Program-made: the position numbers and the translations under genes | The notes under the pieces: model-generated | The model's database searches: none | Told to the model about the DNA's origin: nothing | The model's input: only the letters and a program-made list of their open reading frames with translations | Shown here: positions 10,908 through 60,201 of the stretch, piece after piece | Position numbering within the stretch: position 1 is the first letter of the stretch | Layout: every line of letters starts with the position of its first letter | Origin: Escherichia phage vB_EcoM_G10400 | Strand: one strand, 5' to 3' | Sequence record: MK327937.1 | Length of the DNA stretch: 64,000 bases

Positions 10908-11654
10908 TTATCCTCGGATAAGTTTAAAAATTGAACAATTTAGCGGGTATCCTCTTTTCAGTTTAAGTTTATCAATAAAAGACAAGTTTTGATACCGCTC
11001 TACACCTTGAATAATTTTATCACACATATCATATTGCATTTCTGCTTCTGACAACTTTTTCACAGTTTTCCAATCCGAGCCTTTAAGAAGAACGTTCAAT
11101 TTAACAACTTCAGCGCCTTCTGCTATACGAGAACCATCAATACGAGCTTTGAGTGCTACAATCGTTAGCTTAATATCAGAGGTTTGTTTTGATTTAGAAA
11201 GCTGAGAAATGTGTTCAATTCGGTTTTCACGTTTTTTCTGTATAGCTTTAATTTGATTATAAGTCTTTTTGATTTTAGCCCATTTCTTTTCATCTAAATT
11301 TAGTTTATGAACTTTTTTCGCAGATGAACGACCAATTCGCAAAGCAAATAAATCACGCTTTTCAATCAACTCTTCTAAAGTATAATCAGAACGAAATGTA
11401 TTATACTTCTTCTTTACTGCAATAACATTCCCTTTAATGTATCCAACGTTATTATCAAAACGTTCTAATGATAATTTCTCTCCTTCAATACGATTATCAA
11501 AAGGTTCTCCCGAGTAAGCGCAAACTTTCTGATCTAAAATGTTCTTAATGTAATTGAAGTCTAAGTTAAAATCTTTAGAACGTCTTTTAGCAGATGCCTG
11601 GGTATGCTCTAGACGACGTGTAATTTTACGAATTTGATTTTTAGACAGTTTCAT
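10908..11654 (-). CDS. srd: Srd-like protein (putative sigma-like regulator)
   Basis: 248 aa basic protein downstream of early promoter; position between dda and modA as in T4; identity recalled not verified. Confidence 0.5.
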   Translation of the reverse strand: MKLSKNQIRKITRRLEHTQASAKRRSKDFNLDFNYIKNILDQKVCAYSGEPFDNRIEGEKLSLERFDNNVGYIKGNVIAVKKKYNTFRSDYTLEELIEKRDLFALRIGRSSAKKVHKLNLDEKKWAKIKKTYNQIKAIQKKRENRIEHISQLSKSKQTSDIKLTIVALKARIDGSRIAEGAEVVKLNVLLKGSDWKTVKKLSEAEMQYDMCDKIIQGVERYQNLSFIDKLKLKRGYPLNCSIFKLIRG

Positions 11655-11770: not shown

Positions 11771-12373
11771 TTATAGATTAAATCCTTCAAAATCAAGAGT
11801 ATAGACAGTATATGTTGAATACTTTTTATACTCGTACCTATCCGCAATTCTAAATACGCTTCCAGCTGGTATCATTACTTCTTGTTCATCTGAAACTAAT
11901 TCCATATTACGATAGCGATGGCTATCTGGAAACTTAAAACTTGGACTATATTCTTTACAGCGTAGAGCTTTTATAGCATACTCCTGGAAATTAAACACCA
12001 TAGGAGCTTTGAATTCAAAAATAACTTGCGTGTTGTATTCTAATCCAGAAGCAAAATGTAGAGCTATATTTTTATCATATGAAGCTGATACTACTTTATC
12101 AAATGTAATAATATCAATTCCTTGATTTAATACCTGCTTAGTCTCAACTGGAACACCTCTCCAAAGAGGTTTATCGTTTGGAACCAAACGAGATTTGATT
12201 ATTTCATTTAACCAAGAATGATCGTCTGGCTTATTAGTAATACAATGAATTAAAAGTTCAATTTCGGATAAATTAAATCCTTCAGAAAGTAATTCTTCAC
12301 GAATAGAAGCACGCACCGATGCATCCATTGATTTGATTTTAAAATCTTTTAATTGCATTGCTGAATATTTCAT
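11771..12373 (-). CDS. modA: ADP-ribosyltransferase ModA
   Basis: 200 aa; R-S-ExE ART signature (LWRGV, SAS, EQEVMIP); matches T4 ModA length. Confidence 0.85.
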   Translation of the reverse strand: MKYSAMQLKDFKIKSMDASVRASIREELLSEGFNLSEIELLIHCITNKPDDHSWLNEIIKSRLVPNDKPLWRGVPVETKQVLNQGIDIITFDKVVSASYDKNIALHFASGLEYNTQVIFEFKAPMVFNFQEYAIKALRCKEYSPSFKFPDSHRYRNMELVSDEQEVMIPAGSVFRIADRYEYKKYSTYTVYTLDFEGFNL

Positions 12374-12993
12374 TCAACTACCTCAATATCATACACTTTA
12401 AATGTTCCAAATGAATCGTGTAATTTTTCTTTTGAAATAGAAGTTATTTTATACTTTCCAATTGGAATCATCCATTCTTGTTCACGCACAATCATCATTA
12501 AGTTATCAGTACGTTCTGAATCTAACCCATCAGTATCTTCATATGTATACTTAAACTCAGTATTAGGAGAAGAAAGTATAATATCGCTGATATGGTCAGA
12601 ATAATTAAAAGCTTTATCAGTTTTTAAGCGAAATATTATTTCAGTGGAATATTCAACATAAGAAAAACCACATGCTGTATACAAACTAGTAGTAAATGAA
12701 TCTACTCTGTTCGTTGAAAACACTTCTCCAACTTGTAAATCTTTAATGAGTTCTTTTGTCGATTTTGATATACCACGATATAGCTGATAAGGCGATTTAG
12801 TTAAATGCTTTTTAACGATTTTATTCAACTGCCGATGAAGAGCTTCATTCTTTTTGGCTTCCATACATTGCCAAAGAATTGACTGTTCAAAGTCAGTAAA
12901 TTTTTCACAGACCTTTTTATACATATCATATTGAAAATCGACACTTTCAGCTTTTATAGATAACTGTTCAACATCTGCGAGATTAATAATCAT
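12370..12993 (-). CDS. modB: ADP-ribosyltransferase ModB
   Basis: 207 aa from ATG 12993 with GGAGG RBS; ART motifs LYRGIS, STN, EQEWMIP; ATGA overlap with modA. Confidence 0.85.
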   Translation of the reverse strand: MIINLADVEQLSIKAESVDFQYDMYKKVCEKFTDFEQSILWQCMEAKKNEALHRQLNKIVKKHLTKSPYQLYRGISKSTKELIKDLQVGEVFSTNRVDSFTTSLYTACGFSYVEYSTEIIFRLKTDKAFNYSDHISDIILSSPNTEFKYTYEDTDGLDSERTDNLMMIVREQEWMIPIGKYKITSISKEKLHDSFGTFKVYDIEVVE

Positions 12994-13019
12994 GATAGCC
13001 TCCATATACTTCAGAAACT

Positions 13020-57380: not shown

Positions 57381-57567
57381 CTTAGTCCTTAGTTAAATTT
57401 TCTAAATATGTTTCTAAATCATTTTCAGCTTTATCGATAGATTTTACTAATTCATAATATGTTTCGGCATCTCCATAATCAGAAGATAATTCAAAAGACA
57501 AATCCTTTTCTAAACTAATAATTTCACCAACTAAAAATAATATTTCGTTCTTTTTGTTCGCGAGTAA

Positions 57568-57753
57568 TCATAAGGAATTTATATAATTAATAAGTTCTTG
57601 TTCTTTATTATCGAATTCTTTAGAAAGTTCTTCGTACTCGTTTGCACTAAAAGGACCGCATTCATTACAAACTTTTTCCAATTCACTATTTTTATCCATA
57701 ACTTCATGGATAAGAGAAAAGAGTTTGTCTTTTTGTTCTTTGCTTAGGCTCAT
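57568..57753 (-). CDS. hypothetical protein
   Basis: 61 aa ORF. Confidence 0.45.
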   Translation of the reverse strand: MSLSKEQKDKLFSLIHEVMDKNSELEKVCNECGPFSANEYEELSKEFDNKEQELINYINSL

Positions 57754-57919
57754 ATATTAATTTCCAGAAGTTTTAAAATAATTCGCTTTTGCTTAAATAT
57801 TTCCATAGTTAAATGATCAGTATCTTTTTGACCAATTCCAATAGCAAAACCTTTATTAGCAGCGAGTTCAATTAAATTATCAAGTTCACGTGACACTTCA
57901 TATTGTAACTCAAAACTAT

Positions 57920-58147
57920 TCATTTCGGTTTACCTTCTTTAACGAAATCTGGATAAGGATAAAACCCCGAATAAAATCCTTCACCTTTATGATTGATGCA
58001 TCCTTTATTAGAACAATAGCACCAATAATCGAAATCACAAACCATTTCATCGTTGCATAAAGCAAAAACAACCGGCCATTTACACTTTTCACAGTGGGCA
58101 TTTTTAAGAATGCTAGTTTGGCTCATAACCATGTAACCTTTAAGCAA
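57920..58147 (-). CDS. hypothetical Cys-rich small protein
   Basis: 75 aa with 9 Cys (CEKCKW...CDFDYWCYC...GC). Confidence 0.45.
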   Translation of the reverse strand: MLKGYMVMSQTSILKNAHCEKCKWPVVFALCNDEMVCDFDYWCYCSNKGCINHKGEGFYSGFYPYPDFVKEGKPK

Positions 58148-58350
58148 TATTCTTCTACATGCTGTTTACGACCTTTCTTATCAATAAAGGTATATTCAAC
58201 GAATGTTCCAATATAGTCTTTATCTACATCATGTGGACTATTAATTGGGCATTTAGTACGGCAAATGCGTTCCCATTGACGAATAATTACTGCCTTATTC
58301 TTTGGGTCATATGGATGTGGATAATGTATATTCATAATAACGGTTCCCAA
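58123..58350 (-). CDS. hypothetical protein
   Basis: 75 aa ORF. Confidence 0.45.
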   Translation of the reverse strand: MGTVIMNIHYPHPYDPKNKAVIIRQWERICRTKCPINSPHDVDKDYIGTFVEYTFIDKKGRKQHVEEYCLKVTWL

Positions 58351-58799
58351 TCAACAATCACAATTTCTAATTTAGAGGAATATGTATCTAAAATCCCCTC
58401 AATAATATCCCAGTTCCCTTTACCTATGCCTGCACCAATCCTAGGCATATAGATTGTAGGTTTAATCAGTTTATTTTCACCAAACTCATTTAATTCTAAC
58501 ATACAATTCATTAAAGCGGAATACTCAAAATTTGGCCCTGGTTGAAATTGAGTATAAAGGTTGAAGCAATACGCTTTATGAGTCCTAAAGTATTTTTCAT
58601 AGACTGAGTAAGAACCGAGTTTAGTTACATCACCCCATTCAGTCTGTAATTTATCAGCTTCCAAAATTTTAGGGAAAGCTTTGGTTAATTGACCCGCTAC
58701 GCCTGAACCCATAGTATGAAAACAATTGCATCCATGCGCAATATTTTTACCTTCAGCGAAAAGGGCGACAATATCGCCCTTGATATATTTTACAATCAT
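58332..58799 (-). CDS. macro-domain-like protein (putative ADP-ribose binding/hydrolase fold)
   Basis: 155 aa; N-terminal GDIVA...HGCNCFHTMGSGVAGQL and later PRIGAGIGKGNW resemble macro-domain diphosphate-binding loops. Confidence 0.5.
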   Translation of the reverse strand: MIVKYIKGDIVALFAEGKNIAHGCNCFHTMGSGVAGQLTKAFPKILEADKLQTEWGDVTKLGSYSVYEKYFRTHKAYCFNLYTQFQPGPNFEYSALMNCMLELNEFGENKLIKPTIYMPRIGAGIGKGNWDIIEGILDTYSSKLEIVIVDWEPLL

Positions 58800-59137
58800 C
58801 TAGTACTCAATCCTCGATTATAAGAATCTACCAAACGGTCAACCATTGAATGACAAGCGGCTTTATCTTTCTCCTCCGCAACTGAACATTCTAAGGTATT
58901 CCACTTTTTAGCATATCGTTTTAATAATGTATCGTTTTTGTATCTGCTTGATTTATCTCTTTCTCCGTCTTTATATGCATATATTAATTTCTGTGCAAAT
59001 TCAGCTTGGCATGCTTTATTTTTCCCACAATAATCCGCTGCAGTACGGTTTACATACTCTCTAATTTCAGTATATGATGTATCTGCTAACGCAGAAAATG
59101 AAATTAATCCTATACATAAAACCAAAATTTTAGTCAT
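58796..59137 (-). CDS. putative secreted protein
   Basis: 113 aa; signal peptide MTKILVLCIGLISFSALA; 4 Cys. Confidence 0.55.
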   Translation of the reverse strand: MTKILVLCIGLISFSALADTSYTEIREYVNRTAADYCGKNKACQAEFAQKLIYAYKDGERDKSSRYKNDTLLKRYAKKWNTLECSVAEEKDKAACHSMVDRLVDSYNRGLSTR

Positions 59138-59675
59138 TTACTATTTCCAAAAGTTTATTATTTTTAAGGTAATTAGCCTTTTCTAGGACTTCAGAAGCAT
59201 ATTTAGAACCTGCTTTAACATTCCATCCCGAATTATAAGAGGATATTGCTTTTCTTATATCGCCCTTATGTATATTTAACCAATAAGAAAGTTCAATGTA
59301 CGCCCAGGAAGCTGAATTGGACCGTTTATTCAACATTCTTTTTATTTCAGCATCGGTCATATTATAACCAAGTTCCTTAACTCTTGCTCGCATAGTAGGC
59401 AAATAATTTTGGAACATTCCGTAGGCGTGATGCTTTGCTTTAGATTTTAAATTAACTCCGCCAGAGCTTTCTTGCCATAAAATAGCAGCCATTATATGAC
59501 CCAATCCGCTCTTGTGGATATTTTTGTGTGTTTTATATTTTCCATCCTTAGAAAATTGTTCCCCGAATTGATACGCGTAACGCATGTTATCGAGTTGGAC
59601 ATTACTGAAAGTATGCTCGGAGCTATGTGCCATCATTGAAATGGCCAATAGACCAGCGAGTAGTGCTTTTCTCAT
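59130..59675 (-). CDS. secreted lytic transglycosylase (SLT domain)
   Basis: 181 aa; signal peptide; SLT motifs LWQESSGG, YGMFQ, SYNSGWN; GAGG RBS. Confidence 0.65.
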   Translation of the reverse strand: MRKALLAGLLAISMMAHSSEHTFSNVQLDNMRYAYQFGEQFSKDGKYKTHKNIHKSGLGHIMAAILWQESSGGVNLKSKAKHHAYGMFQNYLPTMRARVKELGYNMTDAEIKRMLNKRSNSASWAYIELSYWLNIHKGDIRKAISSYNSGWNVKAGSKYASEVLEKANYLKNNKLLEIVND

Positions 59676-59682
59676 GCTTACC

Positions 59683-60144
59683 TCATTGAGTTTTAATTAC
59701 TGCTTTAGAAGCCTTTCCTGGTAAACGACGACTGTTGATAATTGCCATCCTGCATTGAAGTGACGGGTCTTTGAACTTCTCATTAGGCTTACAAACAGTA
59801 AATCCAAGCCAAAGATTTCCATCTGTGATTTCTAAACGTCCAGGACGATATTCAACCCCATCAATAAAATCCTCGTCAATGTCAGGACGCGGAGGCATAC
59901 TCAGGAATTCATTAACTTCTAAAACATGGTCTTTTATTTTATGGAATAATTCAAAAACATATGTCTCATCAATCTCCCGTTGAATTGCACGATCAAGAAG
60001 ATGTTGAGAATATTTTAGATGAAACGATGAGACTCCTGCTGCTTTTGATGCCTCACGAATCTCATTGTTAATTTGACGAAACTCCGACTCAAAGTGACGA
60101 CGAAGCTTATTTCGACGGATAAAAACTTCTGTATTGATAGTCAT
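59683..60144 (-). CDS. regB: endoribonuclease RegB
   Basis: 153 aa; early promoter upstream; matches T4 RegB length. Confidence 0.85.
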   Translation of the reverse strand: MTINTEVFIRRNKLRRHFESEFRQINNEIREASKAAGVSSFHLKYSQHLLDRAIQREIDETYVFELFHKIKDHVLEVNEFLSMPPRPDIDEDFIDGVEYRPGRLEITDGNLWLGFTVCKPNEKFKDPSLQCRMAIINSRRLPGKASKAVIKTQ

Positions 60145-60171: not shown

Positions 60172-60201
60172 ATTATACCACAGTCAAGAGGAAAAGTAAA
60201 C
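60172..60201 (-). promoter_or_regulatory. early promoter
   Basis: minus strand gtttacttttcctcttgactgtggtataat upstream of regB. Confidence 0.6.

What the first reader, a model, noticed from the sequence alone, without database searches (positions are those of the whole stretch)
58332..59675. Macro-domain-like protein adjacent to two secreted proteins including a lytic transglycosylase
The 155-aa ORF has Gly-rich loops (GCNCFHTMGSGVAGQ and PRIGAGIGKGNW) spaced like the diphosphate-binding loops of macro domains. The phage also encodes the ADP-ribosyltransferases ModA/ModB in this window, so a macro-type reader or eraser would be a natural partner. It is translationally coupled to a signal-peptide protein and a periplasmic SLT-family enzyme with the ES...GMFQ...SYNSG catalytic motifs, suggesting an early envelope-remodelling or exclusion module.
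Basis: inference. Interest (0 to 1): 0.5.

Follow-up and report, generated by a model that had tools for sequence, protein, structure and literature searches.

The report
Phage T4 anti-DarT macrodomain gene tk.4
This stretch is the well-known tk.4-vs-vs.1 gene trio of a T4-type phage: the 155-residue protein really is a macrodomain, but it is identical to T4 Tk.4, recently named AdfM and shown to protect the phage from the bacterial DarTG2 DNA-ADP-ribosylating defence, so the finding is correct but already known.

Summary
On the minus strand, 58332-58799 encodes a 155-aa macrodomain, 58796-59137 a small signal-peptide protein, and 59130-59675 a signal-peptide SLT/GH23 enzyme.

The window is a Tequatrovirus. 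The three genes are tk.4, vs and vs.1, and Tk.4 is 100% identical to T4 Tk.4.

The macro fold is confirmed by Pfam (above its threshold), by AlphaFold (pLDDT 95) and by Foldseek hits to TARG1, Poa1p, BT1257 and DarG.

The A1pp/macro and SLT similarities were published in 2003-2006. A 2025 preprint showed that a tk.4 knock-out sensitises T4 to DarTG2 and named the gene adfM.

What I add: Tk.4 has an invariant Gln84 where DarG and TARG1 have the catalytic Lys. This is the Gln-type centre of SCO6735/BT1257, and SCO6735 cleaves thymidine-linked ADP-ribose from DNA.

The proposed partnership with ModA/ModB is not supported. Those enzymes modify arginine, lie 46 kb away, and occur in far fewer phages than the macrodomain.

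The three genes have separate knock-out phenotypes, and overlapping start/stop codons are the norm in T4, so a functional module is not supported.

One oddity remains: Vs, annotated as a cytoplasmic valyl-tRNA-synthetase modifier, looks like an exported, disulfide-bonded protein.

Verdict: real and correctly read at fold level, but already known. Low interest.

The parts
58332..58799 (-). tk.4 / adfM: 155-aa stand-alone macrodomain of the ALC1/TARG1-like class with a Gln-type centre
   Evidence: The ORF is. It is 100% identical to T4 Tk.4 NP_049723. Pfam Macro is above threshold. The AF2 model and Foldseek hits confirm the fold. The family profile matches PDB macrodomains. The tk.4 knock-out phenotype in T4 is.
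58689..58733 (-). Residues 23-37 (GCNCFHTMGSGVAGQ): macrodomain loop 1, containing invariant N25 and G31-S-G33
   Evidence: Alignment A1 shows the conservation. The loop aligns with TARG1 CRMGAGIA and SCO6735 CNDLGGWGKG. N25 corresponds to PhiKZ AdfM N23 and SCO6735 N27, both tested by mutagenesis in the literature.
58548..58550 (-). Codon CAA for Gln84, at the position of the catalytic Lys of DarG (K80) and TARG1 (K84) and of Gln85 in SCO6735
   Evidence: The codon is read directly from the sequence. Q84 is invariant in 73 homologs and in 80 bacterial relatives. The SCO6735 Q85A/E mutants are inactive.
58410..58445 (-). Residues 119-130 (PRIGAGIGKGNW): diphosphate-binding loop 2
   Evidence: P119, I121, G122 and G124 are invariant. 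The loop aligns with PRIGCGL of TARG1, SCO6735 and BT1257.
58796..59137 (-). vs: 113-aa protein annotated as valyl-tRNA synthetase modifier; predicted exported, with four invariant Cys
   Evidence: It is 97% identical to T4 Vs and matches phrog_1256. Alignment A3 shows the invariant Cys. The family has only 8 representatives among 1.84 billion proteins, and the three full-length ones inspected (of four fetched) have signal-like N-termini and four Cys.
59084..59137 (-). Vs predicted Sec signal peptide: residues 1-18, with K3, a hydrophobic core at 4-14, and an ALA|DT cleavage site
   Evidence: The hydropathy and cleavage-site anatomy are. The feature is conserved in homologs. This is an inference; no dedicated predictor was run.
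59130..59675 (-). vs.1: 181-aa exported SLT/GH23-fold lytic transglycosylase-like protein
59469..59471 (-). Codon GAA for Glu69 of Vs.1, the E-S motif catalytic glutamate expected of family-1 lytic transglycosylases
   Evidence: The codon is read from the sequence. E69 is invariant in 46 homologs.
59622..59675 (-). Vs.1 predicted signal peptide: residues 1-18, with R2K3, a hydrophobic core at 5-15, and an AHS|S cleavage site
   Evidence: The anatomy is. An N-terminal hydrophobic segment is present in all 46 homologs. The AF2 pLDDT of this segment is only about 57, and it is predicted as a detached helix.
59683..60144 (-). regB endoribonuclease gene, immediately upstream in the same transcription direction (context)
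   Evidence: Pfam REGB_T4 scores 8e-69. The T4 annotation agrees.
60172..60200 (-). Sigma-70-type promoter-like site (TTTACT-17-TATAAT with extended TG) upstream of regB; the likely early promoter feeding regB-vs.1-vs-tk.4
   Evidence: This is a consensus scan only. No terminator-like site was found on the minus strand between it and tk.4.

Best explanation
The 155-aa ORF is the T4 gene tk.4 (adfM). It encodes a free-standing macrodomain made early in infection, probably from the promoter upstream of regB.

Its job is counter-defence. The bacterial DarT2 toxin ADP-ribosylates thymidines in single-stranded phage DNA and so blocks replication. Tk.4 most likely binds the ADP-ribose through its two Gly-rich loops and hydrolyses the thymidine-ribose bond, restoring the DNA.

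It does this with a Gln-type active site (H22, N25, Q84) like that of Streptomyces SCO6735, not with the catalytic lysine of DarG or TARG1.

Shown: the macro fold; 100% identity to T4 Tk.4; the Gln84 mapping; and, from the literature, that a T4 tk.4 knock-out becomes DarTG2-sensitive.

Inferred: that Tk.4 itself is a hydrolase acting on ADP-ribosyl-thymidine DNA.

The two neighbours are separate functions. Vs.1 is a Sec-exported GH23/SLT-fold murein-cleaving enzyme of unknown role. Vs is a small, probably exported protein needed on minimal medium.
For: - Tk.4 is 100% identical to T4 Tk.4, and the window is 98.7% identical to T4-like phages.
- Macro fold: Pfam, the AF2 model with pLDDT 95, and Foldseek hits to TARG1, Poa1p, BT1257 and DarG.
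- The family profile hits BT1257 at 6e-18, TARG1 at 4e-15, DarG at 3e-14 and SCO6735 at 6e-14.
- The DarG models of PADLOC and NCBIfam match the macro half only.
- Genetics: tk.4 was the single hit in a DarTG2 transposon screen of T4, and a clean knock-out was sensitised (bioRxiv 10.1101/2025.11.20.689424).
- T4 lacking adfA and adfN stays DarTG2-resistant, which predicted a further factor (PMC11825919).
- Q84 aligns with SCO6735 Q85 and BT1257 Gln. It is invariant in 73 + 80 relatives.
- SCO6735 cleaves thymidine-linked ADP-ribose from DNA, rescues DarT toxicity, and its Q85A/E mutants are inactive (PMC9411070; PMC9967889).
- A different phage macrodomain, PhiKZ gp104, removes DarT2 marks in vitro, and mutating the Asn equivalent to Tk.4 N25 reduces activity (PMC13309987; alignment).
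- A promoter-like site lies upstream of regB, and there is no minus-strand terminator before tk.4.
Against: - No biochemical assay of T4 Tk.4 itself was found. The preprint says only that enzymatic removal 'seems likely', and it is a preprint.
- Tk.4 lacks the DarG/TARG1 catalytic Lys.
- Tk.4 also lacks the 5-6-residue longer 'mobile loop' that the SCO6735 authors link to high DNA activity.
- Catalytically dead SCO6735, DarG and TARG1 still inhibit DarT by interaction. Protection could therefore be partly or wholly non-catalytic.
- None of 80 sampled bacterial relatives has a DarT2-like neighbour. The family's ancestral substrate may not be DarT2-modified DNA.
Confidence: 0.72

Rival explanations
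1. Tk.4 protects against DarTG2 mainly without catalysis, by binding DarT2 or its ADP-ribosylated DNA product and blocking the toxin.
For: Catalytically inactive SCO6735 (Q85A), DarG (K80A) and TARG1 (K84A) all inhibit DarT activity on DNA, and SCO6735 does so most strongly (PMC9411070). T. aquaticus DarG with K80 mutated still counteracts DarT. Tk.4 has no acid-base residue at position 84.
Against: H22, N25 and Q84, the residues needed for SCO6735 catalysis, are invariant across phage and bacterial relatives. That argues for a conserved enzymatic site. The bacterial relatives have no DarT2 neighbour to bind. PhiKZ AdfM acts catalytically in vitro.
Confidence: 0.12
2. Tk.4 is the reader or eraser partner of the phage's own ADP-ribosyltransferases Alt, ModA and ModB, tuning or reversing modification of host proteins.
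For: Two Mod-type transferase genes are in the same window at 11771-13005. TARG1 and SCO6735 also de-modify proteins at Asp/Glu. No experiment seen here tests Tk.4 on Mod or Alt substrates.
Against: - Alt and ModA target arginine (RNA polymerase alpha R265, MazF R84). Arg-ADP-ribose is cleaved by DraG/ARH enzymes, while TARG1-like macrodomains cleave acidic-residue esters (PMC8120803).
- tk.4 is dispensable on K-12, and the only phenotype reported for it in the preprint passages I read is on DarTG2.
- The Tk.4 family occurs in 2750 phage records, including 85-150 kb phages that are not T4-type, and in at least 521 bacterial loci. Mod-like enzymes occur in 1010 records.
- The genes are 46 kb apart.
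Confidence: 0.05
3. Tk.4 acts on small soluble ADP-ribose derivatives. Candidates are ADP-ribose-1''-phosphate, as for yeast Poa1p (the source of the legacy 'phosphatase' annotation), or ADP-ribose-based immune signals.
For: - Poa1p is among the best sequence and fold matches (3e-6; TM 0.8).
- Tk.4 keeps H22 and has T29 at the positions of Poa1p H23 and S30, two residues mutated in deposited Poa1p structures (entry titles; alignment).
- T4 RefSeq annotates Tk.4 as 'phosphatase, A1pp motif'.
- A comparative survey argued that most phage macrodomains target low-molecular-weight ADP-ribose derivatives (PMC9503650).
- Bacterial relatives are stand-alone genes with no DarT2 nearby.
Against: The only genetic phenotype is specific to the DNA-modifying DarTG2 system. 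The closest solved relatives carrying the same Gln (SCO6735/BT1257) are DNA and protein de-ADP-ribosylases. This activity could also coexist with the main one.
Confidence: 0.08

Closest known systems
T4 Tk.4 = AdfM (anti-DarT factor macrodomain; HIDEN-SEQ preprint 10.1101/2025.11.20.689424)
   Same: The protein is identical, 155/155 residues. The neighbours are the same: tk.3-like, vs, vs.1 and regB.
   Different: The protein does not differ. The host phage is not T4 itself: tk.1 is frameshifted, there are extra small ORFs between tk.2 and tk.4, and the Vs signal peptide has a 2-aa deletion.
SCO6735 (S. coelicolor, PDB 5E3B) and BT1257 (B. thetaiotaomicron, 2FG1): Gln-type ALC1-like macrodomains
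   Same: BT1257 is the best solved sequence relative (1e-9 with the single sequence, 6e-18 with the profile). Both are stand-alone proteins of about 150 aa. H, N and Gln sit at the SCO6735 H24/N27/Q85 positions. SCO6735 cleaves thymidine-linked ADP-ribose from DNA and counters DarT.
   Different: Identity is only about 25%. Tk.4 lacks their 5-6-residue longer mobile loop. Tk.4 has Y82-T83 before the Gln where they have I-G, G23 where SCO6735 has V25, and G88 where SCO6735 has K89.
DarG antitoxin macrodomain (T. aquaticus 5M31, M. tuberculosis 5M3I)
   Same: The fold is the same (TM about 0.77). The profile match is 3e-14, and the PADLOC and NCBIfam DarG models match. Both counteract DarT2.
   Different: Tk.4 has Gln where DarG has the catalytic K80. 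It lacks the FPTKxHW motif with the thymine-stacking Trp. It has no C-terminal DarT-binding domain (155 aa against about 340). It has no adjacent darT gene.
PhiKZ gp104, also named AdfM (Cell Rep 2026, PMC13309987)
   Same: It is a phage-encoded orphan macrodomain that neutralises DarT2. It shares the conserved Asn of loop 1 (N23 in gp104, N25 in Tk.4).
   Different: It belongs to a different subfamily. gp104 is a true DarG-type protein (FPTK motif; 9e-25 to M. tuberculosis DarG). It matches Tk.4 only over 23 residues at E = 0.005. Two unrelated lineages therefore carry the same name.
AdfN of T4 (orphan NADAR antitoxin-like enzyme against DarTG1; PMC11825919)
   Same: The strategy is the same, in the same phage: an orphan copy of an antitoxin-type ADP-ribosyl-DNA hydrolase used as counter-defence.
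   Different: The fold is unrelated (NADAR). AdfN is specific for guanosine, not thymidine, and does not counter DarTG2.
Family-1 lytic transglycosylases / GH23 (Slt70, MltE, MltF, g-type lysozyme), for Vs.1
   Different: Vs.1 is very divergent: it has no significant PDB sequence match, even with a profile. It is a single small domain, is phage-early-expressed, and has no known role. It is non-essential in T4.

Membership tests
Macro domain (Pfam PF01661) | Sequence match to the family model above the curated threshold | tested here: met
   The score is 27.7 bits against a gathering score of 22, covering residues 22-132 and model positions 2-113 of 118.
Macro domain (Pfam PF01661) | Three-layer alpha/beta/alpha fold with a central mixed sheet, superposable on solved macrodomains | tested here: met
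   The AF2 model has pLDDT 95 and pTM 0.90. Foldseek gives TM 0.7-0.8 and probability 1.0 to TARG1, Poa1p, BT1257 and DarG, and 138 PDB hits at E <= 1e-3 (the 50 listed are macrodomains or designs built on a macrodomain scaffold).
Macro domain (Pfam PF01661) | Two Gly-rich loops that hold the diphosphate and distal ribose | tested here: met
   G31-S-G33 and P119-R-I-G-A-G124 align with the corresponding loops of TARG1, SCO6735 and DarG. G33, G122 and G124 are invariant.
Macro domain (Pfam PF01661) | Binds ADP-ribose | not testable with these tools
   This needs ITC, a thermal-shift assay or a co-crystal.
SCO6735/BT1257 subclass of ALC1-like macrodomains | Gln at the position of the DarG K80 / TARG1 K84 catalytic lysine | tested here: met
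   Q84 aligns with SCO6735 Q85 and the BT1257 Gln. It is invariant in 73 + 80 relatives.
SCO6735/BT1257 subclass of ALC1-like macrodomains | Mobile loop five residues longer than in DarG/TARG1 (PMC9411070) | tested here: not met
   BT1257 and SCO6735 show a 5-6-residue insertion relative to the Tk.4-family profile after position 90.
DarG antitoxin (NCBIfam NF048014) | Full-length match: macrodomain plus C-terminal DarT-binding domain | tested here: not met
   The score is 30.3 bits against a cutoff of 250. Only profile positions 2-146 of 338 are matched, and the protein is 155 aa. PADLOC DarG matches positions 2-145 of 329.
DarG antitoxin (NCBIfam NF048014) | Catalytic lysine (K80) in an FPTK motif | tested here: not met
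   Tk.4 has LYTQ84.
DarG antitoxin (NCBIfam NF048014) | Encoded next to a darT toxin gene | tested here: not met
   The neighbours are a tk.3-like gene and vs. tblastn with a DarT2 protein finds nothing in 80 bacterial loci carrying relatives.
T4 AdfM (Tk.4) | Orthology to T4 Tk.4, whose knock-out loses DarTG2 resistance | tested here: met
   Identity is 155/155 and the synteny is the same. The phenotype is taken from the literature and was not tested here.
Poa1p-type ADP-ribose-1''-phosphate phosphatase | Equivalents of H23 and S30, two residues mutated in deposited Poa1p structures (6LFS, 6LFT) | tested here: inconclusive
   H22 is present, and T29 replaces the Ser (alignments). Only the N-terminal 98 residues align well with Poa1p. 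Enzyme activity is not testable here.
SLT / GH23 lytic transglycosylase (Pfam PF01464), for Vs.1 | Family model above threshold, an invariant catalytic Glu in an E-S motif, and the lysozyme-like fold | tested here: met
Vs, valyl-tRNA synthetase modifier (PHROG 1256 / Pfam PF26829) | Orthology to T4 Vs | tested here: met
   It is 97% identical to T4 Vs and matches phrog_1256 at 5e-40.
Vs, valyl-tRNA synthetase modifier (PHROG 1256 / Pfam PF26829) | Cytoplasmic protein able to meet the host valyl-tRNA synthetase | tested here: inconclusive
   A Sec-type N-terminus and four Cys are present in all seven aligned relatives (four Cys invariant there) and in the three further full-length representatives read (anatomy). 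These point to export. No predictor or experiment was available.

The most novel reading that the evidence does not exclude
Vs is not a cytoplasmic valyl-tRNA-synthetase modifier. It is a Sec-exported, disulfide-bonded periplasmic protein of about 11 kDa. It works with the translationally overlapping, co-conserved periplasmic SLT enzyme Vs.1 on the host envelope, and this is why vs mutants fail on minimal medium.
Probability: 0.2. Interest if true: 0.45.

Novelty: already known. Interest (0 to 1): 0.12.

Why it matters
The window adds nothing new to phage biology. The gene is T4 tk.4, its macro/A1pp similarity has been annotated since 2003-2006, and its anti-DarTG2 role was reported in 2025.

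Three small refinements may be useful to specialists:
1. T4 AdfM is a Gln-type (SCO6735/BT1257-like) macrodomain, not a Lys-type DarG copy. The PhiKZ protein that shares the name AdfM belongs to a different subfamily. So phages recruited two separate macrodomain lineages against DarT2.
2. The same Gln-type stand-alone family is widespread in bacterial chromosomes without DarT2 neighbours. This raises the question of what it does there.
3. The 'valyl-tRNA synthetase modifier' Vs looks exported, which is at odds with its textbook role.

Tried and rejected
1. 'Missing catalytic lysine means a new mechanism.' I saw that Q84 replaces DarG K80 and TARG1 K84 and considered this a possible novelty. 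I rejected it after finding that SCO6735 and BT1257 have the same Gln and that the mechanism is published.

3. A C-terminal fragment query meant to bring out a DarG alignment failed. The DarG and SCO6735 sequences were recovered instead through PhiKZ gp104 and BT1257 queries.

4. Pfam found no family for the two Mod-type proteins. PHROGs identified them.

5. I looked for DarT2-like genes next to 80 bacterial Tk.4 relatives by tblastn with a P. aeruginosa DarT2 and found none. The query was a single DarT2 and the flanks were only 3 kb, so distant DarT types could have been missed.

7. Miller et al. 2003 (PMC150520) is not held in the library. The original literature on vs and the tau factor could not be read, so what I say about it rests on annotation and on the preprint's summary.

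8. Two early scripts failed because the T4 locus file was not yet available.
Full report
**What is there**

The interval 58332-59675 holds three minus-strand ORFs:
- 58332-58799, 155 aa;
- 58796-59137, 113 aa;
- 59130-59675, 181 aa.

The first two overlap by 4 nt (ATGA) and the last two by 8 nt. RegB (Pfam REGB_T4, 8e-69) lies just upstream at 59683-60144. Thymidine kinase and rI lie downstream.

The 2.4 kb around the finding is 98.7% identical to many Tequatrovirus genomes. In the T4 reference the same genes are tk.4, vs and vs.1. The window's proteins are 100%, 97% and 99% identical to T4 Tk.4, Vs and Vs.1.

**The macrodomain**

- Pfam Macro matches above its gathering score, 27.7 against 22 bits.
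- The single sequence finds solved macrodomains: BT1257 at 1e-9, yeast Poa1p at 3e-6, and SCO6735, DarG and TARG1 at about 5e-4.
- A profile of 73 homologs (A1) raises these to between 6e-18 and 4e-12.
- An AlphaFold model built on A1 is confident, with pLDDT 95 and pTM 0.90. By Foldseek it matches TARG1, Poa1p, BT1257 and DarG macrodomains with TM 0.7-0.8 and probability 1.0.

**It is already known**

- T4 RefSeq annotates tk.4 as 'phosphatase; contains A1pp phosphatase motif'. Other records say 'macro domain protein'.
- A 2006 comparative paper reports the A1pp match of tk.4 orthologs and the SLT match of vs.1, and credits earlier PSI-BLAST matches reported for T4 vs.1 and vs.6 (PMC1524935).
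- In November 2025 the HIDEN-SEQ preprint reported that tk.4 was the single significant hit when a T4 transposon library was grown on a DarTG2 host. A clean knock-out became DarTG2-sensitive. The authors named the gene adfM, anti-DarT factor macrodomain.
- This filled a gap left by earlier work, which showed that T4 lacking adfA and adfN is still DarTG2-resistant (PMC11825919).
- The window's protein is residue-for-residue the one tested.

**Mechanism, and a refinement**

DarT2 ADP-ribosylates thymidine in single-stranded DNA. DarG and TARG1 reverse this with a catalytic lysine, K80 and K84 respectively (PMC9967889).

In Tk.4 that position is Gln84. This follows from MAFFT, from the HMMER profile alignment to TARG1 and BT1257, and from hmmalign. 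Q84 is invariant in 73 phage and metagenome homologs. It is also invariant in 80 bacterial relatives that were retrieved with patterns not including that site.

I first took this for a possible novelty, but it has a published precedent. S. coelicolor SCO6735 is 54% identical to BT1257, which is Tk.4's best solved relative. SCO6735 has Gln85 at this position, cleaves thymidine-linked ADP-ribose from DNA faster than DarG or TARG1, and rescues DarT toxicity. It is inactive as Q85A or Q85E. Its authors propose a water-mediated, substrate-assisted mechanism (PMC9411070).

I recovered the SCO6735 sequence from the PDB alignment and confirmed the mapping: Tk.4 H22, N25 and Q84 correspond to SCO6735 H24, N27 and Q85. 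Tk.4 lacks the longer 'mobile loop' of SCO6735 and BT1257.

Tk.4 therefore works like DarG but is not a DarG:
- it has no catalytic Lys;
- it has no C-terminal DarT-binding domain (30 bits against a cutoff of 250);
- it has no darT neighbour.

The PhiKZ protein gp104, independently named AdfM, is a true DarG-type macrodomain. It has the FPTK motif and matches M. tuberculosis DarG at 9e-25. It is barely alignable with Tk.4. It removes DarT2 marks in vitro, and its N23A mutant (equivalent to Tk.4 N25) is impaired (PMC13309987).

What remains inferred is the hydrolase activity of Tk.4 itself. Catalytically dead SCO6735, DarG and TARG1 still inhibit DarT, so a binding contribution cannot be excluded.

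**The ModA/ModB idea**

Two Mod-type transferases are indeed in the window, at 11771-12373 and 12370-13005 (phrog_832). They are 46 kb away from tk.4.

- Alt and ModA modify arginine. Arg-ADP-ribose is reversed by DraG/ARH enzymes, whereas TARG1-like macrodomains cleave Asp/Glu esters (PMC8120803).
- tk.4 is non-essential on K-12, and the only phenotype the preprint reports for it (in the passages I read) is against DarTG2.
- Tk.4-type proteins occur in 2750 phage records, including 85-150 kb phages of E. coli, Salmonella and Pseudomonas and a Bacillus phage. They also occur in at least 521 bacterial genome loci of many phyla.
- Mod-like proteins occur in 1010 records, the listed ones nearly all ~165-170 kb phages of enterobacteria.

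The pairing is not excluded by any experiment, but nothing supports it.

**The neighbours**

*Vs.* It has K3, a hydrophobic core at residues 4-14, and an ALA|DT cleavage site. The mature part of about 11.0 kDa has four Cys that are invariant across homologs. The family is tiny, with 8 representatives among 1.84 billion proteins. The three full-length representatives I read all have signal-like N-termini and four Cys in the mature part. This looks like an exported, disulfide-bonded protein, which is hard to square with its annotation as a modifier of the cytoplasmic valyl-tRNA synthetase. The preprint found vs to be the most depleted gene on minimal medium. I could not read the original vs literature.

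**Is it a module?**

- In the T4 table, 9 of 18 junctions in this 6 kb overlap. Overlap is therefore not evidence of functional linkage.
- tk.4 and vs have distinct phenotypes; for vs.1 I saw only its non-essential call and one unidentified comparison row.
- A 45%-identical relative keeps the order SLT-Vs-ORF-macro, with an extra gene inserted.
- An Acinetobacter phage and another T4-like contig carry the macro gene in other neighbourhoods, with no gene carrying an SLT or ValRS_modifier Pfam hit within about 4 kb.
- A promoter-like site upstream of regB, with no minus-strand terminator after it, suggests simple early co-transcription.

**Verdict**

The feature is already known, so interest is low. 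The Vs export puzzle and the Gln-type classification of T4 AdfM are the only points that go slightly beyond the literature I could read.

Noticed in passing
window 58796-59137 (-): Vs is annotated as a modifier of the cytoplasmic valyl-tRNA synthetase. It nevertheless has a Sec-type signal peptide (ALA|DT) and four invariant Cys in an 11.0 kDa mature part. The family has only 8 representatives among 1.84 billion proteins, and the three full-length ones inspected show the same signal-plus-four-Cys layout. Relative to T4, the window's Vs lacks two residues (S-A) in the signal-peptide c-region.
   Followed up: partly
window 57382-57570 (-): tk.1 carries one extra A in a poly-A run compared with T4 (CGAACAAAAAG against CGAAC-AAAAG). 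This cuts the ORF to 39 aa. It is either a frameshifted pseudogene or a sequencing error.
   Followed up: partly
window 57750-58147 (-): Two small ORFs lie between tk.2 and the tk.3-like gene and are not in the T4 reference map. One is 57 aa with no family. The other is a 68-75 aa protein matching Pfam Phage_zn_bind (3e-29). The tk.3-like ORF matches DUF7202.
   Followed up: no
loci L008-L087 (bacterial genome contigs): Stand-alone proteins of about 150 aa, 35-43% identical to Tk.4, occur in at least 521 bacterial loci. They span Rhodobacteraceae, Desulfobacter, cyanobacteria, Bacteroidota, Vibrio and others. H22, N25, D49, N80, Y82 and Q84 are invariant in them. None of the 80 sampled loci has a DarT2-like gene within 3 kb. 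At least one 'bacterial' MAG contig (L005/L008) is really a T4-like phage fragment.
   Followed up: partly
literature: Two papers independently gave the name AdfM to macrodomains of different subfamilies. T4 Tk.4 is Gln-type and BT1257/SCO6735-like. PhiKZ gp104 is Lys-type and DarG-like. The two match each other only over 23 residues at E = 0.005.
   Followed up: yes
window 10908-11654 (-): A 248-aa ORF lies next to the two Mod-type genes. It matches the PHROG named 'Srd anti-sigma factor' (9e-108) and, more weakly, HNH endonuclease families.
   Followed up: no
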